DNA from: a virus
UHGV virus genome: UHGV-0109738
Strand: one strand, 5' to 3'
DNA: 64,000 nucleotides
The notes under the pieces are model-generated. The model had not been told where the DNA came from. It did not search any database and was given only the letters and a program-made list of their open reading frames with translations. The first letter of the stretch is position 1, and the number at the start of each line of letters is the position of its first letter. This document shows, piece by piece, positions 20,807 through 35,417 of this stretch. Both the position numbers and the translations under genes were made by a program.

Positions 20807-21160
20807 CTAATTAATAACTTGCTCAAATGTTGCATTTAGCGTGTATAGCGGACCGTCTTTAGTCATGCTCCAGCTACGGCAAACAAAAAGCCTTTGCACG
20901 TTATCCATCGACGGCGACCAGTAAAAAGCCTCGACAGCGCCACGCGCCCTCAAGAATGCTTCCGCCTGGATCGCTACATTCCCACCATCGCCGCATCCTG
21001 CACTACTGCCTTTAAAAACCAGGGTGTAACTATCAAGTAATGTGTTAATCCCTTTCGCCTGGCGTTGTTCATACCCATCACCAAGTTTAATGACAGATAC
21101 GTTTGGTTCCCTGGTCACGCTGTAGCTTCTTTGCGGCGTCCATCTGAACACTTCCGGCAT
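20807..21160 (-). CDS. M: minor tail protein M
   Basis: N-terminal FRWTP..GDGYEQR and C-terminal NATFEQVIN match lambda M (FRWKV..GDGYSQR; EFSAEFEQVVN). Confidence 0.85.
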   Translation of the reverse strand: MPEVFRWTPQRSYSVTREPNVSVIKLGDGYEQRQAKGINTLLDSYTLVFKGSSAGCGDGGNVAIQAEAFLRARGAVEAFYWSPSMDNVQRLFVCRSWSMTKDGPLYTLNATFEQVIN

Positions 21161-21192: not shown

Positions 21193-21216
21193 TTTACGCG
21201 CTTCTACGCGAAAAAT
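21193..21216. promoter_or_regulatory. conserved motif TTTACGCG-N4-TACGCGAAAAAT (copy A) upstream of M
   Basis: tttacgcgcttctacgcgaaaaat; second copy at 33325-33348. Confidence 0.4.
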
Positions 21217-21327: not shown

Positions 21328-21483
21328 ATGAAACGCTATGTAGTAGTAATGCTAAATAACGCATTCGAACAAGTGGAAATAGCAATCGTTAAGGGTTTCG
21401 ACGACGCATTCAAATACGGTCAATTCATGATGAATGCGAAAGAAGATGAATACCGGGACTTCTTCCTGAAGGCACTTAACTAA
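21328..21483 (+). CDS. small protein (51 aa) with strong RBS
   Basis: GAAGGAGG SD 7 nt upstream of ATG; below the 60-aa track cutoff, found by manual translation. Confidence 0.5.
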   Translation: MKRYVVVMLNNAFEQVEIAIVKGFDDAFKYGQFMMNAKEDEYRDFFLKALN

Positions 21484-21500
21484 GGATGATGGGGTGAGTT

Positions 21501-21755
21501 ATGAAACTGGTAGCGATTGACAAAAACCTGAAAGCACAGAAAAACGCGCCGGAACGTGTAGTTAAAAAAGCAAGGGAGCTTTTGAACGCGTTTTTAAACA
21601 AGGATGTGTCGCCCAAAAAATTAAAAGACGGTTACGGCTACGCCTTCCGCGCCAATTTAGACTGGCGAGTCTATAGCCAGGATCTGAAGGAGTGGGTGAT
21701 TGTTGAACATCATAAATTTAATGAATTATCTGGCGTGCGCGGTTGCCATAAGTGA
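21501..21755 (+). CDS. hypothetical protein (84 aa), weak RelE/HigB-toxin-like motif
   Basis: ORF track; motif GYAFRANLDWRVY..VIVEHH reminiscent of RelE/HigB-type toxins (unverified). Confidence 0.4.
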   Translation: MKLVAIDKNLKAQKNAPERVVKKARELLNAFLNKDVSPKKLKDGYGYAFRANLDWRVYSQDLKEWVIVEHHKFNELSGVRGCHK

Positions 21756-22048: not shown

Positions 22049-22053
22049 GAAAA

Positions 22054-22072
22054 AGGCCACTATAAGTGGCCT
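22054..22072. terminator. terminator-like hairpin (bidirectional)
   Basis: aggccac-tataa-gtggcct flanked by A-run and T-containing run. Confidence 0.5.
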
Positions 22073-22077
22073 TAGTG

Positions 22078-24420
22078 TTATTTGCGGCGCGGTTGCAACA
22101 TTCCGCCCGGTCTTTGAGATTCCCTTGTTATCATCTTCATAGCTACACGTTCCATTGTCTGTTCAAGTCTGCGGCTGTCTTCGTCGCTGAATCCGTTCGT
22201 TGTCTGAATGCTGATACTGACAGGCATACTAATACCGCCACCGCCGCCAATATCACGGCCCGGAATAACTCTGCCGTTCTCGCCAGGAATCATATATTGA
22301 TTCCCGTTAGGCGTCTGGAATAGCTCCGTCCTGTTGTTTTCCCCGACACGGTACAAGTTGCCACCAATGACGCTACCACCATTAAAGCGCCTGCCACCGA
22401 AGATGGATGTTGCCAGAGACATGATCGCAGTGAGTGCCGCAGAGCCAGCCGCCGCCCAGCTACCGCCAGTTGATGCTGCTGTTGCCGCCGCTGCCGGGGC
22501 CGCTGCCGCAGCGATGCTACCCTGAGCGGCTACCGCACTTGCCGTTGTGCTGGCCTGCGTTGCCTTGCTTTGTGTCTCCATCATGATTTGATCTGCTATC
22601 CAGTTGGCGGCTATGTCAGAAAGCCTGTTGCCGATGTTCCCTAGTATATTGCTCCCTAAGTTAGCAAAAACATCGCTCAATGATTGAGTGCCGTTAAGCA
22701 GGCCAACAAGCGCATTGCTCATGCCACCTTTAAGGCCATTAACGCAATCACCGATAAGGCCGTTAGTGTCGCTTTGCGCCTGCCACTGCTCCCATTTCAG
22801 ATCGCGGATCTGCTGCTCATAGGCTAACAATTCCTGTTTCTGTTGTGCTTCTGTAGCGCCCAGGTCGATAAGCATTTGCTTACGGACGGCCCATTCATTT
22901 TGTGCCTGCTGGATGGGGTCAACCTCGCCTTTTAGCTGGTCCATCGGGCTAACTATTTGCGACCATTTATCACGCAGTTCATCTACCGGGATCTGCGCTA
23001 ATTCTTCTTTCAGTTCCTTGCCGATCCCTTTTTGCGCGGCGCGGTACTCAAGGAGCGTGATTTTACCCTGGGCAAATGCAGCATCAATGGCCTTGCCGTT
23101 CTCCAACGCTTTGCGCATGGCGGCGGCGTCTTTGTTGTACTGATCAGAAACGCTTATACCTTTGTCACCAAGCCGATCAGCTTCCGATTTCTTCTCTTTT
23201 TTCTGTTTTTTCGGCTTGTCTACTGGCTTGTCGAATCCGGTAATCGCTCCGTCATTGGCAGCATTCTGTTCATTTTTCCTTGCTTCTTCTGTAGCCTGGA
23301 TTGCTGCGGTCAGATCATCCTGTAGTTGCATGACCTTGCCAACGGTCTTCCCGTATTTCTTCTCGTAGTTGCTGTTATATTCGTCGGTTTGCTCTCCTAC
23401 TACCTCCTTCACCCATTTATAGCCATCCATTAGCGCCTTGATTGGCGTCACCATTGCGATGATCTTCTCTGCCACCTCTCCAGCCTTAACAGCCACATCA
23501 TCAAACATGTCGATAAATTCGCTACCAGCCGTTTTGAGTGTGTCGAAGCAGGTTTTAGCGAATTTAGCGCCATCGCCAAGCCCTTTAACGCCTTTCGTGA
23601 TCAAGTCGATAGCTGAAACAACGCCATCTGACACGCCAAAAAGATCATCCAACTGCTCAACAAGGCCCATAATTTCTACTTTAAGCTCATTGATAGCCAT
23701 GCCGGATGTGCGCGGCAACTGAGCAAACTTATCGTTTGTTTCCTGCGTAGCCGCCTGTATTGCGTTAACCATCCTTTCAGCCGTGATCTTGCCGTCCAGC
23801 ATTTCGGCGCGGAACTGGCCCATTGATAATCCCATATGGCGGGCCATTGTTTGTACGATGGTCGGCGTGTTTTCAAGCAGGCTGTTAAATTCTTCGGCAC
23901 GAAGAACACCGCCGTCGATAGACTGACGGAATTGACGCATTGAGTTAGACATCTGTTCCGCTGACGCGCCGCCTAATGCACCCATTTTCTGAATAGTGCC
24001 AACCAGGTTAAGCAATTGCCCTTCCGTAGCGGAGGTGTTTTTTAGTGAGATAGCCAGGCCTTGCCATAATTCGCCAGTATCTTTCAGGCTCTGCCCCGTC
24101 TCCCTGGATATTTCTTTCAGACCATCAAAAACCCGCCCGGCAGATTCCGCGTCGCCTGTAAGCATTTTGATTTTGACGCGTAGCATTTTGGCCTGCTCTG
24201 CCATTTCCATAAACTGTCTAACGGCCTCGGCAGCAATTAGCAGATGGATAACCCTGGTCAGTGCTTTGATTGATGTTTTCAGTGTGTTTACCTGGCGATC
24301 GGCCTGTTTAGCACCGCGCTCTATACGGTCAAAGGCCTGGTCTGCCTGTCGTTGTGCTACAAGAAGTTGTCCTGTTTTTGCGTCAACTTCGTAATAAATT
24401 GTGCCTACACTGGTAGCCAT
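22078..24420 (-). CDS. tail tape measure protein
   Basis: 780 aa, alpha-helical, Gly/Ala-rich C-terminal region; located between tail chaperone position and M. Confidence 0.85.
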   Translation of the reverse strand: MATSVGTIYYEVDAKTGQLLVAQRQADQAFDRIERGAKQADRQVNTLKTSIKALTRVIHLLIAAEAVRQFMEMAEQAKMLRVKIKMLTGDAESAGRVFDGLKEISRETGQSLKDTGELWQGLAISLKNTSATEGQLLNLVGTIQKMGALGGASAEQMSNSMRQFRQSIDGGVLRAEEFNSLLENTPTIVQTMARHMGLSMGQFRAEMLDGKITAERMVNAIQAATQETNDKFAQLPRTSGMAINELKVEIMGLVEQLDDLFGVSDGVVSAIDLITKGVKGLGDGAKFAKTCFDTLKTAGSEFIDMFDDVAVKAGEVAEKIIAMVTPIKALMDGYKWVKEVVGEQTDEYNSNYEKKYGKTVGKVMQLQDDLTAAIQATEEARKNEQNAANDGAITGFDKPVDKPKKQKKEKKSEADRLGDKGISVSDQYNKDAAAMRKALENGKAIDAAFAQGKITLLEYRAAQKGIGKELKEELAQIPVDELRDKWSQIVSPMDQLKGEVDPIQQAQNEWAVRKQMLIDLGATEAQQKQELLAYEQQIRDLKWEQWQAQSDTNGLIGDCVNGLKGGMSNALVGLLNGTQSLSDVFANLGSNILGNIGNRLSDIAANWIADQIMMETQSKATQASTTASAVAAQGSIAAAAAPAAAATAASTGGSWAAAGSAALTAIMSLATSIFGGRRFNGGSVIGGNLYRVGENNRTELFQTPNGNQYMIPGENGRVIPGRDIGGGGGISMPVSISIQTTNGFSDEDSRRLEQTMERVAMKMITRESQRPGGMLQPRRK

Positions 24421-25845: not shown

Positions 25846-25881
25846 CCTAAAAGAAAGGGGGCTAAATAGCCCCCTTATTGT

Positions 25882-29747: not shown

Positions 29748-31052
29748 TTAGAAATAAGTGTTAAAGTCAGGGACTTCGCCTTTTTTGTCTTCACTTGCTG
29801 TGTTGGCGGCTAGCGGAGTTGCTTTACCCAGGGATTTAAACATTGCCTCTAATGCTTCACCGCTTAATGCGTTAGCAACAATTTCGCCGTGAACTTTTGC
29901 TACTGCGGCGCGTTTTTCTGCTACTTCTTTATTTGCGTTTGCTGCAATTTCTTCTTTAATTGCTTTCTGGTTGGTCTGTAATTCTTCTTGGTTGGTCTGC
30001 AATTCTTCTACGCTTGCCTGTACTGGTTTTAATGCCTCTGCTACTGCATTAGCGATATTGGCGGCTAAGCCTTCGTTAATTTCTTTTACCAGTTCGGCGC
30101 GTTCTTCTTTTGTCAAAGGCATGGGATCGTCCTCCGATTTATTGGCCTTAATTTTTTCATTCAGGGAGAAAAGATTAGAAAGGTGTTCAGCGAACTGAGC
30201 AAACCATGATTTACTTTCCTCGTTGGTTGCAAGCTCGCCATTATTGAGAATAATTTTATCAGCCTGTTTTTCGTAGTTGTATCTTTCCGCACAGTTTTCA
30301 TTAGTGGCGATCGTCACCTCTCTATCAGTGAAGTCCACCACGTATACGTAATCAGCGTCAGGGAACATTTCCCGCGCGGCAGCGGTTAACTGCTTTTCAA
30401 GTGTGCGATAGCTATTTTCTTTCATTGCCACCGCCATTAACGGCTTCGCCTGGTCGGTATTAACCATTAAGCCTACGCCCTGTTCCGGCGAAGCGGCTGG
30501 CGGCTCATGCAGCAAGATAGCGTCATGGTCGATCGACATGATTTTCACTACATGGTCAGCACCCTGGGCTTTCATTTTTTCGGTGGCTGGCATACGCTGG
30601 CGATATACAGCGACGGACGACCAGATAGGATCTTTGCTTTCTCCTTTCTCCAGTGCTTCCAGTCGGGCTAATAATTCGCGGCCCTGGCTTGAATGGCTGG
30701 CGGTTTCCACATCCACCCATTTTTCCACATAAACACGGTTGCCGCGTAACTCAACGTTTCTGTTCCACGCACCACAAAAACCCGTGTTTAATCCTTCCGG
30801 GCTAAATGCTGAAACAAATTTACCGTCAACGGTAGGATGGCCCAGCGGGGCAAGCGTACCCTCCAGTGACTGGTAATTAGCGATAATTTCAGCTTCCGGG
30901 TAATATTCACGATTCATAACGATATTGAATGGCAGCGTATATGATGGCACAACAATGTGCTCGCGTCCGTTATAAGTTTCCCGGCGTATGGTATTAGCGG
31001 TTAATTTGGTATTAACCTGAATCAGTTCTTTACTCACGGTTTTTACTCCCAA
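29748..31052 (-). CDS. putative scaffolding/prohead protein
   Basis: 434 aa with C-terminal coiled-coil (EELQTNQEELQTNQKAIKEE). Confidence 0.45.
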   Translation of the reverse strand: MGVKTVSKELIQVNTKLTANTIRRETYNGREHIVVPSYTLPFNIVMNREYYPEAEIIANYQSLEGTLAPLGHPTVDGKFVSAFSPEGLNTGFCGAWNRNVELRGNRVYVEKWVDVETASHSSQGRELLARLEALEKGESKDPIWSSVAVYRQRMPATEKMKAQGADHVVKIMSIDHDAILLHEPPAASPEQGVGLMVNTDQAKPLMAVAMKENSYRTLEKQLTAAAREMFPDADYVYVVDFTDREVTIATNENCAERYNYEKQADKIILNNGELATNEESKSWFAQFAEHLSNLFSLNEKIKANKSEDDPMPLTKEERAELVKEINEGLAANIANAVAEALKPVQASVEELQTNQEELQTNQKAIKEEIAANANKEVAEKRAAVAKVHGEIVANALSGEALEAMFKSLGKATPLAANTASEDKKGEVPDFNTYF

Positions 31053-31987
31053 TCTTCGCCATATTTAGCGTGCGCAACTTTATAGTTTTCTTGCGCCCGA
31101 TCTAATATTCGTTCGTTTAATATGTTACCGTCTTCGTCAACTAATACGGTAATCGTGCTACATTTGCAGTTAATTGAATTAGGGGATCTACTCCACCATT
31201 CGCGCTGCTCATCTATGGTGTATGTTTTACCGTGCCGCTGCGCGTGCGATAGCCTGGTAGTCGGTGATAATGCCGAAATGTGCATTTGCATAGTGCGCAG
31301 ATTAAATTCTTCTGTCGCCGCTTCTGCCTCATCCATACGCGCTGTGCGTAACGCTGTGCATATTTCAGTTCGAGCAATACGTTTACACCTGTATAGCGGT
31401 AATTGCGTCTCCTGATTCAATGTGCGCGCTATTTCCAGTGGGTTTAAACCACGGGCCATGCCTTCAGTTAGTCGGCGGGCCATATCCTTTTTGATCTGTG
31501 CTGTCAGCCCGCGCATTTCCTCAAATACACGGGTACGGACAAGGGCAAGGCGTGTGCGGTAAGTTGTGCTGGATAGCACGACAGACACATCAGGATAGGC
31601 GCTTGAGTACGTGACAGACTGGTTAGCGAGGTTGGCATATTCCTGTGCCGTGCCGCGCTGATAAGCCACCTTCACGTAATTCTGCCAAAACCAAAAACTT
31701 TCCGGGTCGGTTAGCTCGAATATCTCATCAATCATGTCGCTGGCGTCCTCCAGCATGTCATGCAGTTCATCCATGTAAATCTGAAAGGTGTATTTCTTAT
31801 TAACAGCCAGGCTATATTGTATTCTGTCAAGTATGGCGAGATATGGATCGGCTATTTTGTTCAGGCAGGATTTGAAACGCTTAATAGCGCCAGACCTTAA
31901 CTTCCCTGTCATGGTCGGGTCTTCGGTGTTAGATGGCATTATCGCGGCTGGAGGTATTCGCCTGATTATTTTCTTCACCTTCATCAT
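31043..31987 (-). CDS. head morphogenesis (minor head) protein
   Basis: 314 aa; directly downstream of portal. Confidence 0.5.
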   Translation of the reverse strand: MMKVKKIIRRIPPAAIMPSNTEDPTMTGKLRSGAIKRFKSCLNKIADPYLAILDRIQYSLAVNKKYTFQIYMDELHDMLEDASDMIDEIFELTDPESFWFWQNYVKVAYQRGTAQEYANLANQSVTYSSAYPDVSVVLSSTTYRTRLALVRTRVFEEMRGLTAQIKKDMARRLTEGMARGLNPLEIARTLNQETQLPLYRCKRIARTEICTALRTARMDEAEAATEEFNLRTMQMHISALSPTTRLSHAQRHGKTYTIDEQREWWSRSPNSINCKCSTITVLVDEDGNILNERILDRAQENYKVAHAKYGEDWE

Positions 31988-33302
31988 CGTTTTCCTCGTC
32001 TTCCAGTTCTACTTCATTAGCCGGGCCATCGTATCCGGCAGCTTCACGGATCTCGTCACCGCTGAATATTTCCTCACCAGTAGCGAGACATGCATGATTG
32101 ATTTGTGCCATTTTGTATGCCGCGTCGAGTAGCTCAGCTTTTGTCATGGCGTTAAGGTCGTCCCACAGCACAGATACGTCTACTGGCATACTGATAAGGC
32201 GGAGATCTGCCATCTTGCGGAATAGTTCCTCAAGCTCGCCTCCTATTTCCTCCCGGCGGGTCATACAGCGGTTATTGAAGTAGCGGAGGTCTTCGGTTGA
32301 TGCACGCTCACCCTGCTGATTCCCAACCAGGATACGCGTTGGAATGTCGATGCCAGCGGCGGCGGTTTGCAGGTTGACGTCATAGGTAGCGGACGGATCG
32401 GCTACGGCAGTAACCAGCGGGCTAACGGTAGCTCCCTGCAATGCCATCATCACATCATTACCTTTATTTATATCCTCTGCCGCTTCATTGAATTTTTCGC
32501 GTAGCTCTGTAACGTCGCAACCGTATGTTGCAGCCAGGGAACGGAAATCAATCTCTTTATCGAACGAGATAGCCAGTTGACGTGCTGCGTTTTTCAGGAA
32601 TGATTCACCGCTGCCGCCTTCCACTTTCTCCAGTGAAACGAATGCGTTATAGGACGGTTCAAGGAAAGCGATGGCATCATCAGAATAATCACCGAAGATA
32701 AATATGCGATCTGGATGTATCTTTCTTGCTATGGTCTTACTGTTAATGCGCTCCTTGTATTCCCACCATGTAGGCAGGCCATAGTTTTCTTTATCCGGGT
32801 TTTCTTCGAAGTCCTTCGGTGTAAGAGCACCAGCCCATACGGGGGTAAATTTGGCAATGCCTACGCCTTTTGTTACTGGCTGATCCCACGGCTTGTTATC
32901 CCTGACGTGAATTAACAGTCCAGCATAACGACCGATGAGGCGGCGGCGATCGCATTCAGCAATTACGCGCCAGAATCTATTGTCGAATCGTTTTTTGATT
33001 TCTCTTTCCCACGAAGTTTCCTTTTCCGCTTTCTCGTCTTCCGTACCTTCAATCAGCGTTGGCCTGGTGCGCCAGCACGTAGTAATGATCTTCTCAATAG
33101 CACCGTGAGCGATACCACCGCGACGATACAGTTTGTATAAATCGGCATAGGTGATTTCTTCTTTAAATCCGTATTCACTCCACGCAGCATCACGTTTGGC
33201 ATCTATCCCCATAGTGAACGGATGTGCCGCTGCATAGCGGGCAAAGGCCGCCTGGCGTTGAGACAAGGCAGCATTAACCGCCAATTCTAAATTGGATGGC
33301 AT
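31929..33302 (-). CDS. portal protein
   Basis: 457 aa from ATG preceded by AGGAG; acidic C-terminus; follows terL. Confidence 0.7.
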   Translation of the reverse strand: MPSNLELAVNAALSQRQAAFARYAAAHPFTMGIDAKRDAAWSEYGFKEEITYADLYKLYRRGGIAHGAIEKIITTCWRTRPTLIEGTEDEKAEKETSWEREIKKRFDNRFWRVIAECDRRRLIGRYAGLLIHVRDNKPWDQPVTKGVGIAKFTPVWAGALTPKDFEENPDKENYGLPTWWEYKERINSKTIARKIHPDRIFIFGDYSDDAIAFLEPSYNAFVSLEKVEGGSGESFLKNAARQLAISFDKEIDFRSLAATYGCDVTELREKFNEAAEDINKGNDVMMALQGATVSPLVTAVADPSATYDVNLQTAAAGIDIPTRILVGNQQGERASTEDLRYFNNRCMTRREEIGGELEELFRKMADLRLISMPVDVSVLWDDLNAMTKAELLDAAYKMAQINHACLATGEEIFSGDEIREAAGYDGPANEVELEDEENDDEGEENNQANTSSRDNAI

Positions 33303-33324
33303 AATGTTTACTCCTGAATACATG

Positions 33325-33348
33325 TTTACGCGTTGCTACGCGAAAAAT
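33325..33348. promoter_or_regulatory. conserved motif TTTACGCG-N4-TACGCGAAAAAT (copy B) upstream of portal
   Basis: tttacgcgttgctacgcgaaaaat; 21 of 24 nt identical to copy A. Confidence 0.4.
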
Positions 33349-33413
33349 AGAAAAATTCGTGAGGGATTGTGAGGCAGATTTTGTGTAGCTAATTGAGAAT
33401 TATTATTGTTCAT

Positions 33414-33432
33414 CTTCGAAAATTTTTCGAAG
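33414..33432. repeat. 19-bp perfect palindrome in terL-portal intergenic gap
   Basis: cttcgaaaatttttcgaag. Confidence 0.6.
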
Positions 33433-33450
33433 TTGATAATAATCAATAAC

Positions 33451-34935
33451 TTAAAACCCTCGCAGGCGCTTAGGTAACATAAGGCCCATTGCCTGTGGCT
33501 GGCTTAGTTCGGTGATACCCCATACCATTGCGTCCATACGGTCAGGGGATTTTTTGGCGGTAGCTGGCACGTATTCCATCATTTGATTTTCCAGCGTATA
33601 TAGCTCACCAGTGTGTGCCACCCTTCCTTGTGCATACAGTGCTGATATTGGTTCGGCGCGGGCGAATTTACCTTTGCTTGCGTGCACCTTAACAATGCGG
33701 CCTTTGAATCCTGCATTGCGTAGCGTGGCCTCTGCCATGTCACCGCCCTGGTTGGTTTCGATAACTATCGCGTCAGCTTCATGGATGTCATAAGCGTTCA
33801 TTGCTGCTTGCGCCCAGTCGTTAGGCGACATGCGGCCTGAATAGTCACCGTCTACTGAATACTGTGCGTACTTGCCGCCACCATAAGCGGAACACGCCAT
33901 GATCCCCGTTTCGTCTGACTCATCAGATGATGTTGTCGCAGGGTCAATAGCTATCACAGTGCGGATTTTCTCCTGCGTTATCTGCATCCGGTGCGCGGCG
34001 GTAATCATCGCCTCTGTCCACAACGCACCCTCTTCGTCGAATTTACGCGGGCGCTGCATGTACTGGGCCTCAAATGACCGTCTGTGTGCCTTCAGTCCAG
34101 CTTCATGGGCGTCATTGTGCTTTTTAGGCCATAGCCAGCCATCTGGCAGGTTATGAGGAATGGGGATAGCGAACTCGTTTTCAGGATACAAATCCCGGTA
34201 GTCAACGCTGTTGTCGATTTTCACTGGCAGGTTCAAGTGATACCACTTTTCACCGCTTCCACCGCGTAGCAGGTAGCCGGACAAATCATCGTAGTGGATG
34301 CGCTGCATGATGACGATGACAGGCGTTGTTTGCACCGCCAGACGTGAAGCAAGCGTGTCGTTGTAGTTGGTGTTTACCTGCTTTCTCACCACGTCAGAGT
34401 AAGCGTCAGCGGGTTTTAATGGGTCGTCGATGATTAACGCGCCATTAAATCCTGGCTCCATATACCCCGCACGGAACCCTGTAACCTGGCCAAGCGATGA
34501 CGTTGCATACACGCCGCCACCGTATTCAGTCCACCACATTGATTTTGAGTTTGCATCGTTGCGGATCCTCATGGGCCACATTGCCTGATATTCAGGCGTA
34601 CAGATCATGTTTCTTACGGTCGAGGAATTGAGTAACGCCAGGTTGTTGGAATAGGAGACATGAAGGAATCGTGTGCGGGGATTTATTGCGAGTGACCGCG
34701 CCATCATGTTGATAGTTGCGATCATGGTTTTGCCGTACCCTGGAGGGATGTTAATGATGAGTCGGGTTATCTCACCATTGACAACGCGTTGCAGTGCGTC
34801 GCGGATAGCTAAGTGATGGCCTGAGATTAACATCTTCGTTCCGTTCGCTTGCTTATAGAAGTAGCGATTGAAAAACAGGCCATCGTTTTCACATTTGGAC
34901 TGAATAACTCGTTCTTTGATTGTCAGCATAATCAC
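33451..34935 (-). CDS. terminase large subunit
   Basis: 494 aa; Walker A-like PPGYGKT; follows terS. Confidence 0.85.
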   Translation of the reverse strand: MIMLTIKERVIQSKCENDGLFFNRYFYKQANGTKMLISGHHLAIRDALQRVVNGEITRLIINIPPGYGKTMIATINMMARSLAINPRTRFLHVSYSNNLALLNSSTVRNMICTPEYQAMWPMRIRNDANSKSMWWTEYGGGVYATSSLGQVTGFRAGYMEPGFNGALIIDDPLKPADAYSDVVRKQVNTNYNDTLASRLAVQTTPVIVIMQRIHYDDLSGYLLRGGSGEKWYHLNLPVKIDNSVDYRDLYPENEFAIPIPHNLPDGWLWPKKHNDAHEAGLKAHRRSFEAQYMQRPRKFDEEGALWTEAMITAAHRMQITQEKIRTVIAIDPATTSSDESDETGIMACSAYGGGKYAQYSVDGDYSGRMSPNDWAQAAMNAYDIHEADAIVIETNQGGDMAEATLRNAGFKGRIVKVHASKGKFARAEPISALYAQGRVAHTGELYTLENQMMEYVPATAKKSPDRMDAMVWGITELSQPQAMGLMLPKRLRGF

Positions 34936-35417
34936 ACCTCATCTTCTACTTCCTGAACGATGCGGGCGATCTCTTCTTTTGTGACTTCTACCTGTACTGG
35001 TGCTTCTTCCCTGTTGCCTACGATTTCCTGCGTAACGCGTTCGCCATACTTACGCGGTTGCAGTTTTGCCAATAGCCATTTACGGGTTTCAATCATCAAT
35101 TGATGGCGGCGGCATTGGTCTTTATCGGTGTTCTCCGCTGCGTCCGCTATGTCGATAATCTCATCAGCCAATACCTCAAAACCGATCTCTTTCGCGCGTA
35201 TGTACATGTCCGAGAACTCTGGCACGTCTCTGAACCATTTAAGGATTGTTGAACGCGCAGGCATATCAGGCATCTTCGAAATCTTGTTAATACTTTGACC
35301 GTCCGCCACCAGCTCACAGATCTCTAATGCCTTTTCTTCGGTATAACCATGCGGACGGCCCACCTTTTTAGCTGCTGGCTTTTTATCGTCAGCTTTTGCC
35401 TTTTTAGTGCGGGCCAT
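34932..35417 (-). CDS. terminase small subunit
   Basis: 161 aa; basic N-terminus with HTH; 4-nt overlap with terL. Confidence 0.75.
   Translation of the reverse strand: MARTKKAKADDKKPAAKKVGRPHGYTEEKALEICELVADGQSINKISKMPDMPARSTILKWFRDVPEFSDMYIRAKEIGFEVLADEIIDIADAAENTDKDQCRRHQLMIETRKWLLAKLQPRKYGERVTQEIVGNREEAPVQVEVTKEEIARIVQEVEDEV

What the first reader, a model, noticed from the sequence alone, without database searches (positions are those of the whole stretch)
33303..33450. 148-bp gap between terL and portal with a 19-bp perfect palindrome
Packaging and portal genes are usually overlapping or adjacent, but here they are separated by a gap containing the perfect palindrome cttcgaaaatttttcgaag (33414-33432) with partially symmetric AT-rich flanks, in addition to the motif above. 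This could be an RNA hairpin, a protein-binding site, or a scar from a lost intervening element.
Basis: seen in the sequence. Interest (0 to 1): 0.45.

Follow-up and report, generated by a model that had tools for sequence, protein, structure and literature searches.

The report
Gene-fragment insertion between terminase and portal
The palindrome lies in a 70-base piece of foreign DNA, a fragment of a roi/rha-type regulator gene, that some relatives of this E. coli prophage carry just after the terminase gene and most lack, so it is most likely an ordinary evolutionary scar that happens to fold into a hairpin.

Summary
The terL stop is at 33451-33453, the portal ATG is at 33302, the gap is 148 nt, and CTTCGAAAA-T-TTTTCGAAG lies at 33414-33432.

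The phage belongs to the mEp021 (mEpimmI) group of E. coli temperate phages. In 53 distinct relatives the gap is either 77-79 nt (36 loci) or 148 nt (17 loci). None has a gene in the gap.

The whole difference is one 70-nt insertion (33381-33450, ±2 nt) directly behind the terL stop. The palindrome sits inside it.

Fifty-nine nt of the insert are 83-85% identical to an internal coding stretch of a Roi/Rha-family gene. That gene lies in an intZ (CPZ-55-type) island between eutA and eutB of 17 E. coli genomes. The stretch encodes the family's most conserved motif (…IQL…EV[D/E]N[N/K]Q…). In the window it is cut short by stops and runs antisense to terL and portal.

In the donor-like gene the palindrome is imperfect (CTTCGAAAAAAAATCGAAG). 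A block AAAA→TTTT change makes it perfect here.

Tests found no terminator, Rfam family, convincing promoter, conserved micro-ORF, second copy or MITE features.

Best reading: a dispensable gene-fragment scar that forms an intercistronic hairpin of about −14 kcal/mol. Low interest.

The adjacent 53-nt core upstream of portal, which holds a 24-nt motif present twice in the window, is the conserved element and looks like the functional one.

The parts
33451..34935 (-). Large terminase subunit gene (terL). Its stop codon TAA is the complement of 33451-33453.
   Evidence: ORF list. Pfam Terminase_6C, E=3.5e-12. Annotated as terminase large subunit in mEp021 and MagusPhagus.
33381..33450 (.). 70-nt insertion relative to most relatives. 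The boundaries can slide up to 2 nt to the right because TT occurs at both junctions. It holds the palindrome and is placed directly 3' of the terL stop.
   Evidence: Alignment with mEp021, mEp013 and MagusPhagus. 17 filled versus 36 empty distinct loci. Found only at this locus, one place per genome.
33394..33452 (+). Stretch homologous to an internal coding piece of a Roi/Rha-family gene from the eutA-eutB (intZ) island. On the + strand it reads *LRIIIVHLRKFFEVDNNQ*, so it is a truncated pseudogene fragment antisense to terL and portal.
   Evidence: blastn 83-85% identity over 59 nt, E=1e-8 to 2e-5, in 17 E. coli genomes. Alignment. tblastn of the island protein against the window hits 33393-33446. 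The motif is conserved across the family.
33414..33432 (.). The 19-nt palindrome CTTCGAAAA-T-TTTTCGAAG (9-nt arms, one central base). It is the top of the composite hairpin.
   Evidence: The donor-like gene has the imperfect CTTCGAAAAAAAATCGAAG at the homologous position.
33399..33443 (.). Extended imperfect inverted repeat. Outer arms ATTATTAT (33399-33406) and ATAATAAT (33436-33443) enclose the palindrome.
   Evidence: the repeat finder I1, I2, I5. Folds.
33356..33380 (.). Variable spacer of the ancestral gap (sense strand AATCTGCCTCACAATCCCTCACGAA). It diverges freely among relatives.
   Evidence: pi = 0.11 among filled loci and 0.21 among empty loci. Sequences listed.
33303..33355 (-). Nearly invariant 53-nt core upstream of portal. 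It holds a U-rich tract, the hairpin CGCGT-AGCA-ACGCG (33329-33342), the direct repeat ATGTTTAC x2 (33304-33311, 33322-33329) and the Shine-Dalgarno AGGAG (33311-33315). It includes the 24-nt motif at 33325-33348, which recurs at 21193-21216.
   Evidence: pi = 0.006 against 0.17-0.29 at third codon positions of the flanking genes. Motif has 2 copies where 0 are expected. Direct repeat. The second copy is conserved in mEp021.
31929..33302 (-). Portal protein gene.
   Evidence: Pfam Phage_portal_3, E=1.4e-17. Annotated as portal in mEp021 and MagusPhagus.

Best explanation
The palindrome is not a free-standing signal. It is the centre of a 70-nt piece of DNA inserted directly behind the terL stop codon in one sub-lineage of mEp021-like (mEpimmI) E. 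coli temperate phages.

The insert is a truncated antisense fragment of a Roi/Rha-family (antirepressor-like DNA-binding) gene. It covers the family's most conserved motif.

It arose in one of two ways, and the data cannot tell which: capture of a short patch by illegitimate recombination, or deletion of a longer insertion down to 70 nt.

The hairpin-forming character was inherited from the donor coding sequence, which is already a strong quasi-palindrome. One block change, AAAA->TTTT, is best explained by an intrastrand template switch that corrects a quasi-palindrome. That change made the central 9+9 palindrome perfect.

The insertion is now a presence/absence polymorphism. Recombination through the invariant 53-nt core upstream of portal, and to a lesser degree through terL, moves it among phage backgrounds.

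In the late polycistronic transcript the insert forms an AU-rich stem-loop of about -14 kcal/mol between terL and portal. I judge it dispensable and close to neutral. At most it modulates local mRNA decay or processing.

Shown:
- the insertion and its boundaries
- its distribution among relatives
- its homology to a roi-like gene
- the truncation of the reading frame
- folding energies
- absence of terminator, promoter, Rfam and MITE features

Inferred:
- the direction of transfer
- the template-switch origin of the perfect palindrome
- near-neutrality
For: 1. Relatives and the indel.
- The window is about 90% identical to mEp021, mEp013, mEp515 and MagusPhagus across terS-terL-portal.
- Those phages have a 78-nt gap, and the difference is one 70-nt block.
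- Among 53 distinct loci from GenBank phages, E. coli prophages, IMG/VR and metagenomes, the gap is 77-79 nt in 36 and 148 nt in 17. None has a gene in it.
- More distant portal relatives (84-87% identity) have the short form, so the insertion is the derived state.

2. Homology to a coding sequence.
- 59 nt of the insert match an internal coding stretch of a 200-aa gene in 17 E. coli genomes at 83-85% identity, E down to 1e-8.
- That gene sits in an intZ island between eutA and eutB.
- It is a distant Roi homologue: 33% identity to Min27 Roi, whose N-terminus matches Phage_pRha just below Pfam's cut-off (27.0 bits against 29.9, E=6.9e-6).

3. The shared stretch is integral to the family.
- It encodes MRMNIIQLRKKIEVDNNQTL.
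- It aligns without gaps to the family's most conserved motif G[VI]IQLPxxxEV[ED]N[NK]QSLSPN in more than 50 remote homologues.
- It therefore belongs to the gene, and the phage copy is the fragment.
- The window reads *LRIIIVHLRKFFEVDNNQ*, with stops on both sides.

4. Exact-pattern scans of IMG/VR, JGI/ENA metagenomes and GTDB genomes find the sequence in only these two contexts.

5. The donor-like segment itself folds strongly: -17.4 kcal/mol, z = -5.5. It carries CTTCGAAAAAAAATCGAAG. The phage copy differs by four adjacent A->T changes of equal length that complete the palindrome.

6. Diversity and recombination.
- Insert diversity is low (pi 0.0185). The adjacent 25 nt show 0.11 and flanking third codon positions 0.17-0.18.
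- The same flanking haplotypes occur with and without the insert.
- This fits a single, relatively recent origin spread by recombination.

7. No functional signature.
- No terminator, and promoter-like hits no more frequent than in shuffles.
- No Rfam match near threshold.
- No second copy in the window.
- The micro-ORF is not conserved: 25 aa here, 10 aa in the common haplotype.
- None of the seven cultured phages of the group carries the insert.
Against: 1. The insert is about 10-fold less diverse than synonymous sites in the flanking genes and about 6-fold less than the adjacent spacer. Purifying selection on a functional hairpin would also produce this. Young age and constraint cannot be separated with these data.
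2. The homologous stretch coincides almost exactly with the hairpin-forming stretch in both contexts. That is a little too neat for a random fragment, and it hints that the structure mattered for capture or retention.
3. No donor closer than 85% identity was found, and no roi-like gene carries the KFFE (AAAATTTTT) version. The polarity of the AAAA/TTTT change therefore rests on one comparison.
4. The left-most 11-13 nt of the insert (TTGTGTAGCTAAT) have no clear counterpart in the donor-like gene.
5. No expression data exist for either allele.
Confidence: 0.68

Rival explanations
1. Selected intercistronic RNA stem-loop. The hairpin just after the terL stop is kept because it protects the upstream terS-terL message from 3' exonucleases, or is a processing site such as an RNase III target. 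Either would uncouple the amounts of terminase and portal/head proteins, much as REP/BIME hairpins do in bacterial operons.
For: - The insert lies in a transcribed intergenic region of the late operon and folds to -14.4 kcal/mol, z = -3.9, on the sense strand.
- Its diversity (pi 0.0185) is far below that of the neighbouring spacer (0.11) and of synonymous sites (0.18).
- The central 9+9 stem is identical in 15 of 17 distinct filled loci.
- The captured fragment corresponds to the hairpin-forming part of the donor.
Against: - Two thirds of relatives, including all seven cultured phages, lack it, so it is dispensable.
- The one natural variant in the central stem (L017, L020 and L026; A->G on the + strand) gives an A/C mismatch in the sense RNA and drops the sense fold to -10.1 kcal/mol. 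It stays a G-U pair only on the antisense strand.
- The outer stems differ between the two main haplotypes without compensation.
- The stem is AU-rich and weak for an exonuclease barrier.
Confidence: 0.2
2. Remnant of a complete antisense-oriented roi-like moron that once sat between terL and portal and was deleted down to 70 nt.
For: - The fragment comes from the middle of a gene and is bounded by stops.
- The terL-portal junction accepts extra DNA in a more distant relative. Cronobacter phage ES2 has a 388-nt gap with a 60-aa ORF, a stem-loop followed by a T-run (terminator-like by eye, not scanned) and a stretch that reads like a tRNA T-arm.
- Opposite-strand morons exist elsewhere in the late region of this phage group.
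Against: - None of the 53 distinct relatives has anything longer than 148 nt at this site, and no intermediate lengths occur.
- The ES2 gap content is unrelated to the insert.
- The surviving piece coincides with a hairpin unit, which fits direct capture of a short structured fragment at least as well.
Confidence: 0.3
3. DNA-level protein-binding site. The 9+9 dyad would be an operator-like site for a dimeric phage or host regulator, or a packaging-related site.
For: Perfect dyad symmetry with half-sites CTTCGAAAA. Intergenic position next to the packaging genes.
Against: - Single copy in 64 kb even with 3 mismatches allowed.
- Absent from most relatives that share the same terS, terL and portal.
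- The symmetry is explained by descent from a quasi-palindromic coding sequence.
- The small terminase is Sf6-type. From general knowledge, the pac site of such headful phages lies within or near terS, not downstream of terL.
Confidence: 0.04
4. Miniature mobile element (MITE-, REP- or ERIC-like palindromic unit) that inserted independently into the phage gap and into the roi-like gene.
For: - Small size and overall imperfect palindromic architecture, with a possible 2-nt (TT) duplication at the junctions.
- It occurs in two unrelated genomic contexts.
- In one of the two main empty-site haplotypes, the one shared by all filled loci, the site is a near-palindrome (GCAGATTTT^AAAATCCGC) centred on the insertion point.
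Against: - Exactly one place per genome in every genome that has it.
- Only two contexts exist in IMG/VR, the metagenomes and GTDB genomes.
- No terminal inverted repeats at the insert ends.
- In the roi-like gene the stretch encodes the family's conserved motif and aligns without gaps to more than 50 homologues, so it was not inserted there.
Confidence: 0.03

Closest known systems
Gene-fragment remnants and small indels at module junctions of mosaic temperate phage genomes (illegitimate recombination, moron gain and loss, as described for lambdoid phages and mycobacteriophages; from general knowledge)
   Same: Short foreign segment placed exactly at a gene boundary. Present in some relatives and absent in others. 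Derived from an unrelated phage-type gene. Flanked by sequence that recombines freely.
   Different: The surviving fragment is only 70 nt and coincides with a hairpin-forming quasi-palindrome. No full-length version at this site is known.
Roi / Rha-family phage DNA-binding (antirepressor-like) genes (Pfam Phage_pRha PF09669; HK022 and Min27 roi)
   Same: The insert is homologous at DNA level to a member of the family. In one + strand frame it still spells the family's conserved ...EVDNNQ motif.
   Different: Only about 19 codons remain, bounded by stop codons, with no start codon or domain. It runs antisense to the surrounding operon. It is a pseudogene fragment, not a member gene.
Intercistronic stem-loops that stabilise upstream mRNA (REP/BIME elements, e.g. 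malE-malF; from general knowledge)
   Same: Imperfect palindrome in a transcribed gap between two genes of one operon, directly after a stop codon.
   Different: Single copy rather than a dispersed repeat family. AU-rich, modest stability. No evidence of an effect on mRNA. Dispensable in most relatives.
Quasi-palindrome correction by intrastrand template switching (Ripley-type mutations; from general knowledge)
   Same: A cluster of adjacent substitutions (AAAA->TTTT) of unchanged length that turns an imperfect inverted repeat into a perfect one.
   Different: Inferred from one comparison with an 85%-identical homologue. The ancestral state is not directly known.
Rho-independent terminators
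   Same: Stem-loop downstream of a stop codon.
   Different: No G+C-rich stem and no U-tract on either strand. The terminator scan finds none in 32800-34000.
MITEs and enterobacterial palindromic repeats (ERIC/IRU, REP)
   Same: Small, palindromic, intergenic.
   Different: One copy per genome, no terminal inverted repeats, at most a 2-nt junction repeat. The second context is genuine coding sequence.

Membership tests
Rho-independent (intrinsic) terminator | G+C-rich stem-loop followed by a run of U on the transcribed strand | tested here: not met
   Scan of 32800-34000 on both strands found 0 terminator-like sites. The stem is A/U-rich. The sense strand continues AUGAACAAU and the antisense strand UUGAUAAUA.
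MITE / dispersed palindromic repeat (REP, ERIC) | Multiple copies per genome at unrelated loci | tested here: not met
   One place per genome in all 26 E. coli genomes with a match. Only two genomic contexts appear in IMG/VR, the metagenomes and GTDB genomes.
MITE / dispersed palindromic repeat (REP, ERIC) | Terminal inverted repeats and a target-site duplication | tested here: not met
   The insert ends (TTGTGTAGC... / ...CAATAAC) are not complementary. The junction repeat is at most TT.
Roi/Rha-family gene (Phage_pRha) | Sequence homology to family members | tested here: met
   59 nt at 83-85% identity to a Roi homologue, E=1e-8. The frame retains IIIVHLRKFFEVDNNQ against the family motif G[VI]IQL...EV[ED]N[NK]Q.
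Roi/Rha-family gene (Phage_pRha) | Intact open reading frame covering the winged-helix domain | tested here: not met
   The frame is bounded by TAA on both sides and spans about 19 codons. It is therefore filed as a fragment, not a gene.
Sigma-70 promoter | -35 and -10 hexamers with 16-18 nt spacing, better than chance and conserved | tested here: inconclusive
   One 9/12 match on each strand (TCGAAA-N16/17-AATAAT). The region has 3 hits against 1.8±1.3 in shuffles. The sense-strand -10 becomes AAGAAT in the common haplotype.
Any curated RNA family (Rfam 15) | Score at or above the family gathering threshold | tested here: not met
   The best overlapping hits are 15-18 bits against thresholds of 46-63, with E about 1-2.
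Intercistronic mRNA-stabilising hairpin (REP-like function) | Stable stem-loop in a transcribed intergenic region | tested here: met
   -14.4 kcal/mol, z = -3.9, on the sense strand. In the 176-nt context z = -2.2.
Intercistronic mRNA-stabilising hairpin (REP-like function) | Measurable effect on upstream mRNA half-life or on relative expression | not testable with these tools
   Needs RNA end mapping and decay measurements in isogenic phages with and without the insert.
Operator / repeated protein-binding site | Recurrence of the site or half-site at other regulatory positions of the genome | tested here: not met
   Only the site itself is found in 64 kb with up to 3 mismatches.
Small protein-coding gene (micro-ORF) in the gap | Reading frame and length conserved among carriers, with a ribosome-binding site | tested here: not met
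   The sense ATG at 33413 gives 25 aa here but 10 aa (TAA) in the common haplotype. No Shine-Dalgarno spacing is present.

The most novel reading that the evidence does not exclude
The 60-nt hairpin may be a functional RNA module shared by two mobile elements. The phage late transcript carries an antisense copy of the conserved core of a roi/rha-type gene. It could pair with the mRNA of that gene in a co-resident island or prophage, or the reverse, giving RNA-level interference between competing elements. The low diversity of the insert would then reflect selection. The evidence does not exclude this, but complementarity is only about 85% and the centre of the hairpin (AAAA versus TTTT) is exactly where the two differ.
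Probability: 0.03. Interest if true: 0.6.

Novelty: new member of a known kind. Interest (0 to 1): 0.2.

Why it matters
It mainly removes a false lead. The striking palindrome is not a packaging, regulatory or mobile-element signal. It is a captured gene fragment that is polymorphic in the phage population.

Two minor points of interest remain.
- It is a clean natural example of a coding quasi-palindrome transplanted into an intergenic region and apparently perfected by a template-switch-type block mutation.
- It shows that the terL-portal junction of the mEpimmI phage group is a recombination and insertion hot spot next to an almost invariant 53-nt element.

That neighbouring element holds the 24-nt motif TTTACGCGnTnCTACGCGAAAAAT, which also occurs upstream of a minor tail gene. 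It is the better candidate for a real late-gene control signal and deserves its own follow-up.

Tried and rejected
- **Intrinsic terminator.** None found on either strand.
- **Known RNA family.** No Rfam match near threshold.
- **Sigma-70 promoter inside the insert.** Only weak 9/12 matches, no more than in shuffles, and the -10 is not conserved in the common haplotype.
- **Micro-ORF.** The sense-strand ORF from 33413 is 25 aa here and 10 aa elsewhere. The + strand frame is a truncated Roi motif of 18-19 codons.
- **MITE or repeat family.** One copy per genome and two contexts in all collections searched. The three GTDB hits and three metagenome hits with other flanks are chance matches to the pattern.
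- **Operator with other copies.** None in the window.
- **A gene lost from this position.** No relative has one.
- **Content of the Cronobacter phage ES2 gap.** Its 388-nt gap is unrelated to the insert, and ARAGORN finds no tRNA there.
- **Closer donor gene.**
  - The word-indexed protein search returned only the island protein itself.
  - phmmer against 1.8 billion representatives gave nothing closer than 38% identity over full length.
  - The plasmid collection holds nothing relevant.
  - No other roi-like sequence exists in the window.
- **Covariation between the spacer (GAGGG) and the terL end (CCCTC) flanking the insert.** The haplotypes assort independently (L008 and L015), so this is not a conserved long-range stem.
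- **Near-palindrome at the empty site (GCAGATTTTAAAATCCGC).** It is not conserved in the AAACCATCC-type relatives, so it is probably not functional.
- **The mEpimmI paper (PMC11893012).** It does not discuss this gap.

Full report
**1. What is in the sequence**

All genes around the finding lie on the minus strand:
- small terminase, 34932-35417, Sf6-type (PF20901)
- large terminase, 33451-34935, Terminase_6C
- portal, 31929-33302, PF06381
- a Mu-F-like head morphogenesis gene, 31043-31987

The terL stop codon is the complement of 33451-33453. The portal most likely starts at the ATG at 33302. AGGAG (complement of 33311-33315) lies 8 nt upstream of it. An in-frame ATG at 33323 also exists.

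CTTCGAAAATTTTTCGAAG lies at 33414-33432. It is a 9+9 inverted repeat around one central T.

The repeat finder extends the arms to 13 nt at 92% complementarity. It also finds outer arms ATTATTAT / ATAATAAT at 33399-33406 / 33436-33443.

A palindrome of this size is not rare on its own. The window has 6 hits at 5 sites with arms >=9 and spacer <=3. Markov-1 random sequences of the same composition average 1.2, and 68% of them hold at least one.

**2. What the phage is and how relatives look**

The terS-terL-portal block is 87-91% identical to mEp021, mEp013, mEp515, mEp044, mEp010, mEp554 and MagusPhagus. These E. coli temperate phages form the "mEpimmI" group described in PMC11893012. That paper does not discuss this gap.

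The left end of the window is 100% identical to E. coli chromosomes, so the window is an E. coli prophage region.

In mEp021, mEp013 and MagusPhagus the terL-portal gap is 78 nt. The alignment shows that the whole difference is one 70-nt block, window 33381-33450. It is inserted directly after the terL stop. Its boundaries can slide 2 nt because TT occurs at both junctions.

I collected relatives from four sources:
- E. coli complete genomes
- IMG/VR, by exact pattern and by portal protein
- metagenomes
- GenBank phages

After removing duplicates there are 53 distinct loci. The gap is 77-79 nt in 36 and 148 nt in 17. There are no intermediate lengths, and no gene ever sits in between.

The most distant E. 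coli-type relatives (portal 84-87% identical) have the short form, so the insertion is the derived state. None of the seven cultured phages carries the insert.

**3. Where the insert comes from**

A sensitive blastn of the insert against 5,426 complete E. coli genomes gave two sets of hits:
- nine prophages carrying it at the same site, at 96% identity
- a second context in 17 genomes, where 59 nt (window 33394-33452) are 83-85% identical, with E from 1e-8 to 2e-5

That second context is a stretch inside a gene next to eutA. The gene lies at the end of an island of roughly 10 kb. The island has an intZ integrase and an HNH endonuclease and sits between eutA and eutB, the position of the CPZ-55 cryptic prophage in K-12.

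The gene encodes a 200-aa protein. By tblastn it is 33% identical to the Roi DNA-binding/antirepressor protein of Stx phages. Roi's N-terminus matches the Phage_pRha domain just below Pfam's cut-off: 27.0 bits against 29.9, E=6.9e-6.

The shared 59 nt encode MRMNIIQLRKKIEVDNNQTL. I ran phmmer against 1.8 billion representative proteins and aligned more than 50 homologues. This stretch aligns without gaps to the family's most conserved motif, G[VI]IQLPxxxEV[ED]N[NK]QSLSPN.

So the stretch is native to the roi-like gene, and the phage copy is the fragment. In the window the same frame on the + strand reads *-LRIIIVHLRKFFEVDNNQ-*. That is about 19 codons bounded by stops, running antisense to terL and portal.

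Exact-pattern scans of IMG/VR, the metagenome collection and one genome per GTDB species found only these two contexts, plus obvious chance matches. No closer donor was found.

**4. Why it is a palindrome**

The homologous part of the roi-like gene is already a strong quasi-palindrome. The codons for IIQLRK and KIEVDNN are largely reverse complements of each other. The segment folds at -17.4 kcal/mol, z = -5.5.

Its centre is CTTCGAAAAAAAATCGAAG, with 6-nt arms and an A-run. The A-run varies from 7 to 9 among strains and shifts the annotated start of the gene.

The phage copy has CTTCGAAAATTTTTCGAAG. It is the same length, with four adjacent A->T changes that complete a 9+9 palindrome. A block change of this kind is the classic footprint of intrastrand template switching at quasi-palindromes. 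This is an inference from general knowledge, because the true donor is unknown.

The palindrome's symmetry therefore has a historical explanation and needs no function.

**5. Tests for function**

- No terminator-like site exists on either strand. The only promoter-like matches are 9/12 and no more frequent than in shuffles.
- The sense-strand -10 of that match is not conserved in the common haplotype.
- Rfam gives nothing near threshold.
- The palindrome has no second copy in 64 kb with up to 3 mismatches, which argues against an operator.
- A sense-strand ATG at 33413 opens a 25-aa ORF here. It stops after 10 aa in the common haplotype and lacks a ribosome-binding site.
- MITE criteria fail: one copy per genome, no terminal inverted repeats, and at most a 2-nt junction repeat.
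- The insert does fold as RNA. The values are -14.4 kcal/mol (z = -3.9) on the sense strand and -14.2 (z = -2.6) on the antisense strand. In the 176-nt context, z = -2.2 on both strands.
- Three IMG/VR contigs carry an A->G change in the left arm. It breaks the central stem in the sense RNA, which drops to -10.1 kcal/mol, but keeps a G-U pair in the antisense RNA.

**6. Population pattern**

Nucleotide diversity (pi) among the 17 distinct filled loci:

| Segment | pi |
|---|---|
| Insert (four haplotypes differing at four sites) | 0.0185 |
| Adjacent 25-nt spacer | 0.11 |
| Third codon positions, last 450 nt of terL | 0.18 |
| Third codon positions, first 450 nt of portal | 0.17 |
| 53-nt core next to portal | 0.006 |

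Filled and empty loci are interspersed when clustered by either flank. Some filled/empty pairs are identical over the first 200 nt of portal and over the 78-nt ancestral gap. On the terL side, 12 of the 17 filled loci cluster together.

The simplest reading is a single insertion younger than the flanking allelic diversity. Recombination then moved it between backgrounds, mostly through the invariant core.

Purifying selection on the insert would give the same low diversity and cannot be excluded. This is the main reason I leave 0.2 on the functional-hairpin rival.

**7. Verdict**

The scar is a fragment of a roi/rha-type gene. It is not demonstrably the remnant of a gene that once stood at this site.

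I judge the insert a dispensable, near-neutral passenger that forms an intercistronic hairpin. Confidence is 0.68 for the whole statement, and about 0.85 for the gene-fragment origin alone.

It is a new example of a known kind of thing, namely junction scars in mosaic phage genomes. Interest is low (0.2).

**8. What looks functional instead**

The ancestral part of the gap is the better candidate. The 53 nt upstream of portal (33303-33355) are almost invariant across all relatives.

They contain:
- a U-rich tract
- the hairpin CGCGT-AGCA-ACGCG (33329-33342), in which loop positions vary and one stem pair changes U-A to U-G in two relatives
- the direct repeat ATGTTTAC x2

The 24-nt motif TTTACGCGnTnCTACGCGAAAAAT occurs a second time at 21193-21216, where none is expected by chance. 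That copy lies about 40 nt upstream of a minor tail gene (ATG 21160, minus strand), just after a cluster of opposite-strand small genes. It is conserved at that position in mEp021 and is not annotated there.

It deserves its own evaluation as a late-gene control element.

Noticed in passing
window 33325-33348 and 21193-21216 (core 33303-33355): The 24-nt motif TTTACGCGnTnCTACGCGAAAAAT occurs twice, where 0 copies are expected by chance. Each copy lies 25-40 nt upstream of a late gene start on the minus strand (portal; minor tail gene with ATG at 21160). The 53-nt core around the first copy is almost invariant in 53 relatives (pi 0.006). The second copy is conserved in mEp021 and is not annotated there. 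It is a candidate late promoter, activator site or RNA signal.
   Followed up: partly
L004 (E. coli ATCC 8739, NC_010468.1) 3859-4461; also L005-L007: The roi-like gene of the eutA-eutB intZ island holds a strong coding hairpin (z = -5.5). An A-run in its loop varies from 7 to 9 A among strains. The variation shifts the frame and the annotated start, so it looks like slipped-strand on/off variation or decay.
   Followed up: partly
E. coli prophage homologues of window 31929-33302: NCBI PGAP names the portal homologues 'anti-CBASS protein Acb1 family protein'. Pfam identifies the protein as Phage_portal_3 (PF06381, ex-DUF1073), and phage records call it portal. The PGAP name looks misleading.
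   Followed up: no
L102 (Cronobacter phage ES2, JF314845.1) 2062-2449: This more distant relative has a 388-nt terL-portal gap. It holds a stretch that reads like a tRNA T-arm (GGTTCGAGTCCAGCC), a stem-loop followed by a T-run (terminator-like by eye; not scanned) and a 60-aa ORF. ARAGORN calls no tRNA there. The content is unrelated to the window's insert, but it shows that the junction accepts extra DNA.
   Followed up: partly
L001 (mEp021) 2895-2925, versus window 33300-33323: mEp021 has lost the usual portal start (ATG->ATA) and has a divergent N-terminus. Its portal is annotated from the upstream in-frame ATG, which corresponds to window 33323.
   Followed up: no
window 21328-21755 (+ strand): Two small + strand ORFs (51 and 84 aa, the first with a strong AGGAGG ribosome-binding site) lie between the 780-aa ORF at 22078-24420 (not identified here) and the minor tail gene. 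They are opposite to the late operon, so they form a moron-like cluster. mEp021 has the same arrangement and, on the far side of the minor tail genes, a 'putative antirepressor' gene.
   Followed up: no
window 60686-60706, 97-117, 25856-25875, 22053-22073: Other perfect inverted repeats with arms of 9 nt or more. ATTTATTAACAGTTAATAAAT and GTGATTGTTGCGAACAATCAC look operator-like. AGGGGGCTAAATAGCCCCCT and AAGGCCACTATAAGTGGCCTT are G+C-rich stem-loops that may be terminators.
   Followed up: no
L012, L013, L014, L016 versus L011, L015 and the window: Insert-bearing prophages carry two different terminase gene sets: terL 1479 nt with terS 486 nt, or terL 1515 nt with an overlapping terS of 516 nt. 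The insert has therefore been combined with different packaging modules.
   Followed up: partly
window 1-2500: 100% identical to a segment present in many E. coli chromosomes, including Nissle 1917. The segment is annotated with RepL and a DUF4756 protein. The window therefore spans E. coli chromosomal or other mobile-element DNA besides the mEp021-like prophage.
   Followed up: no
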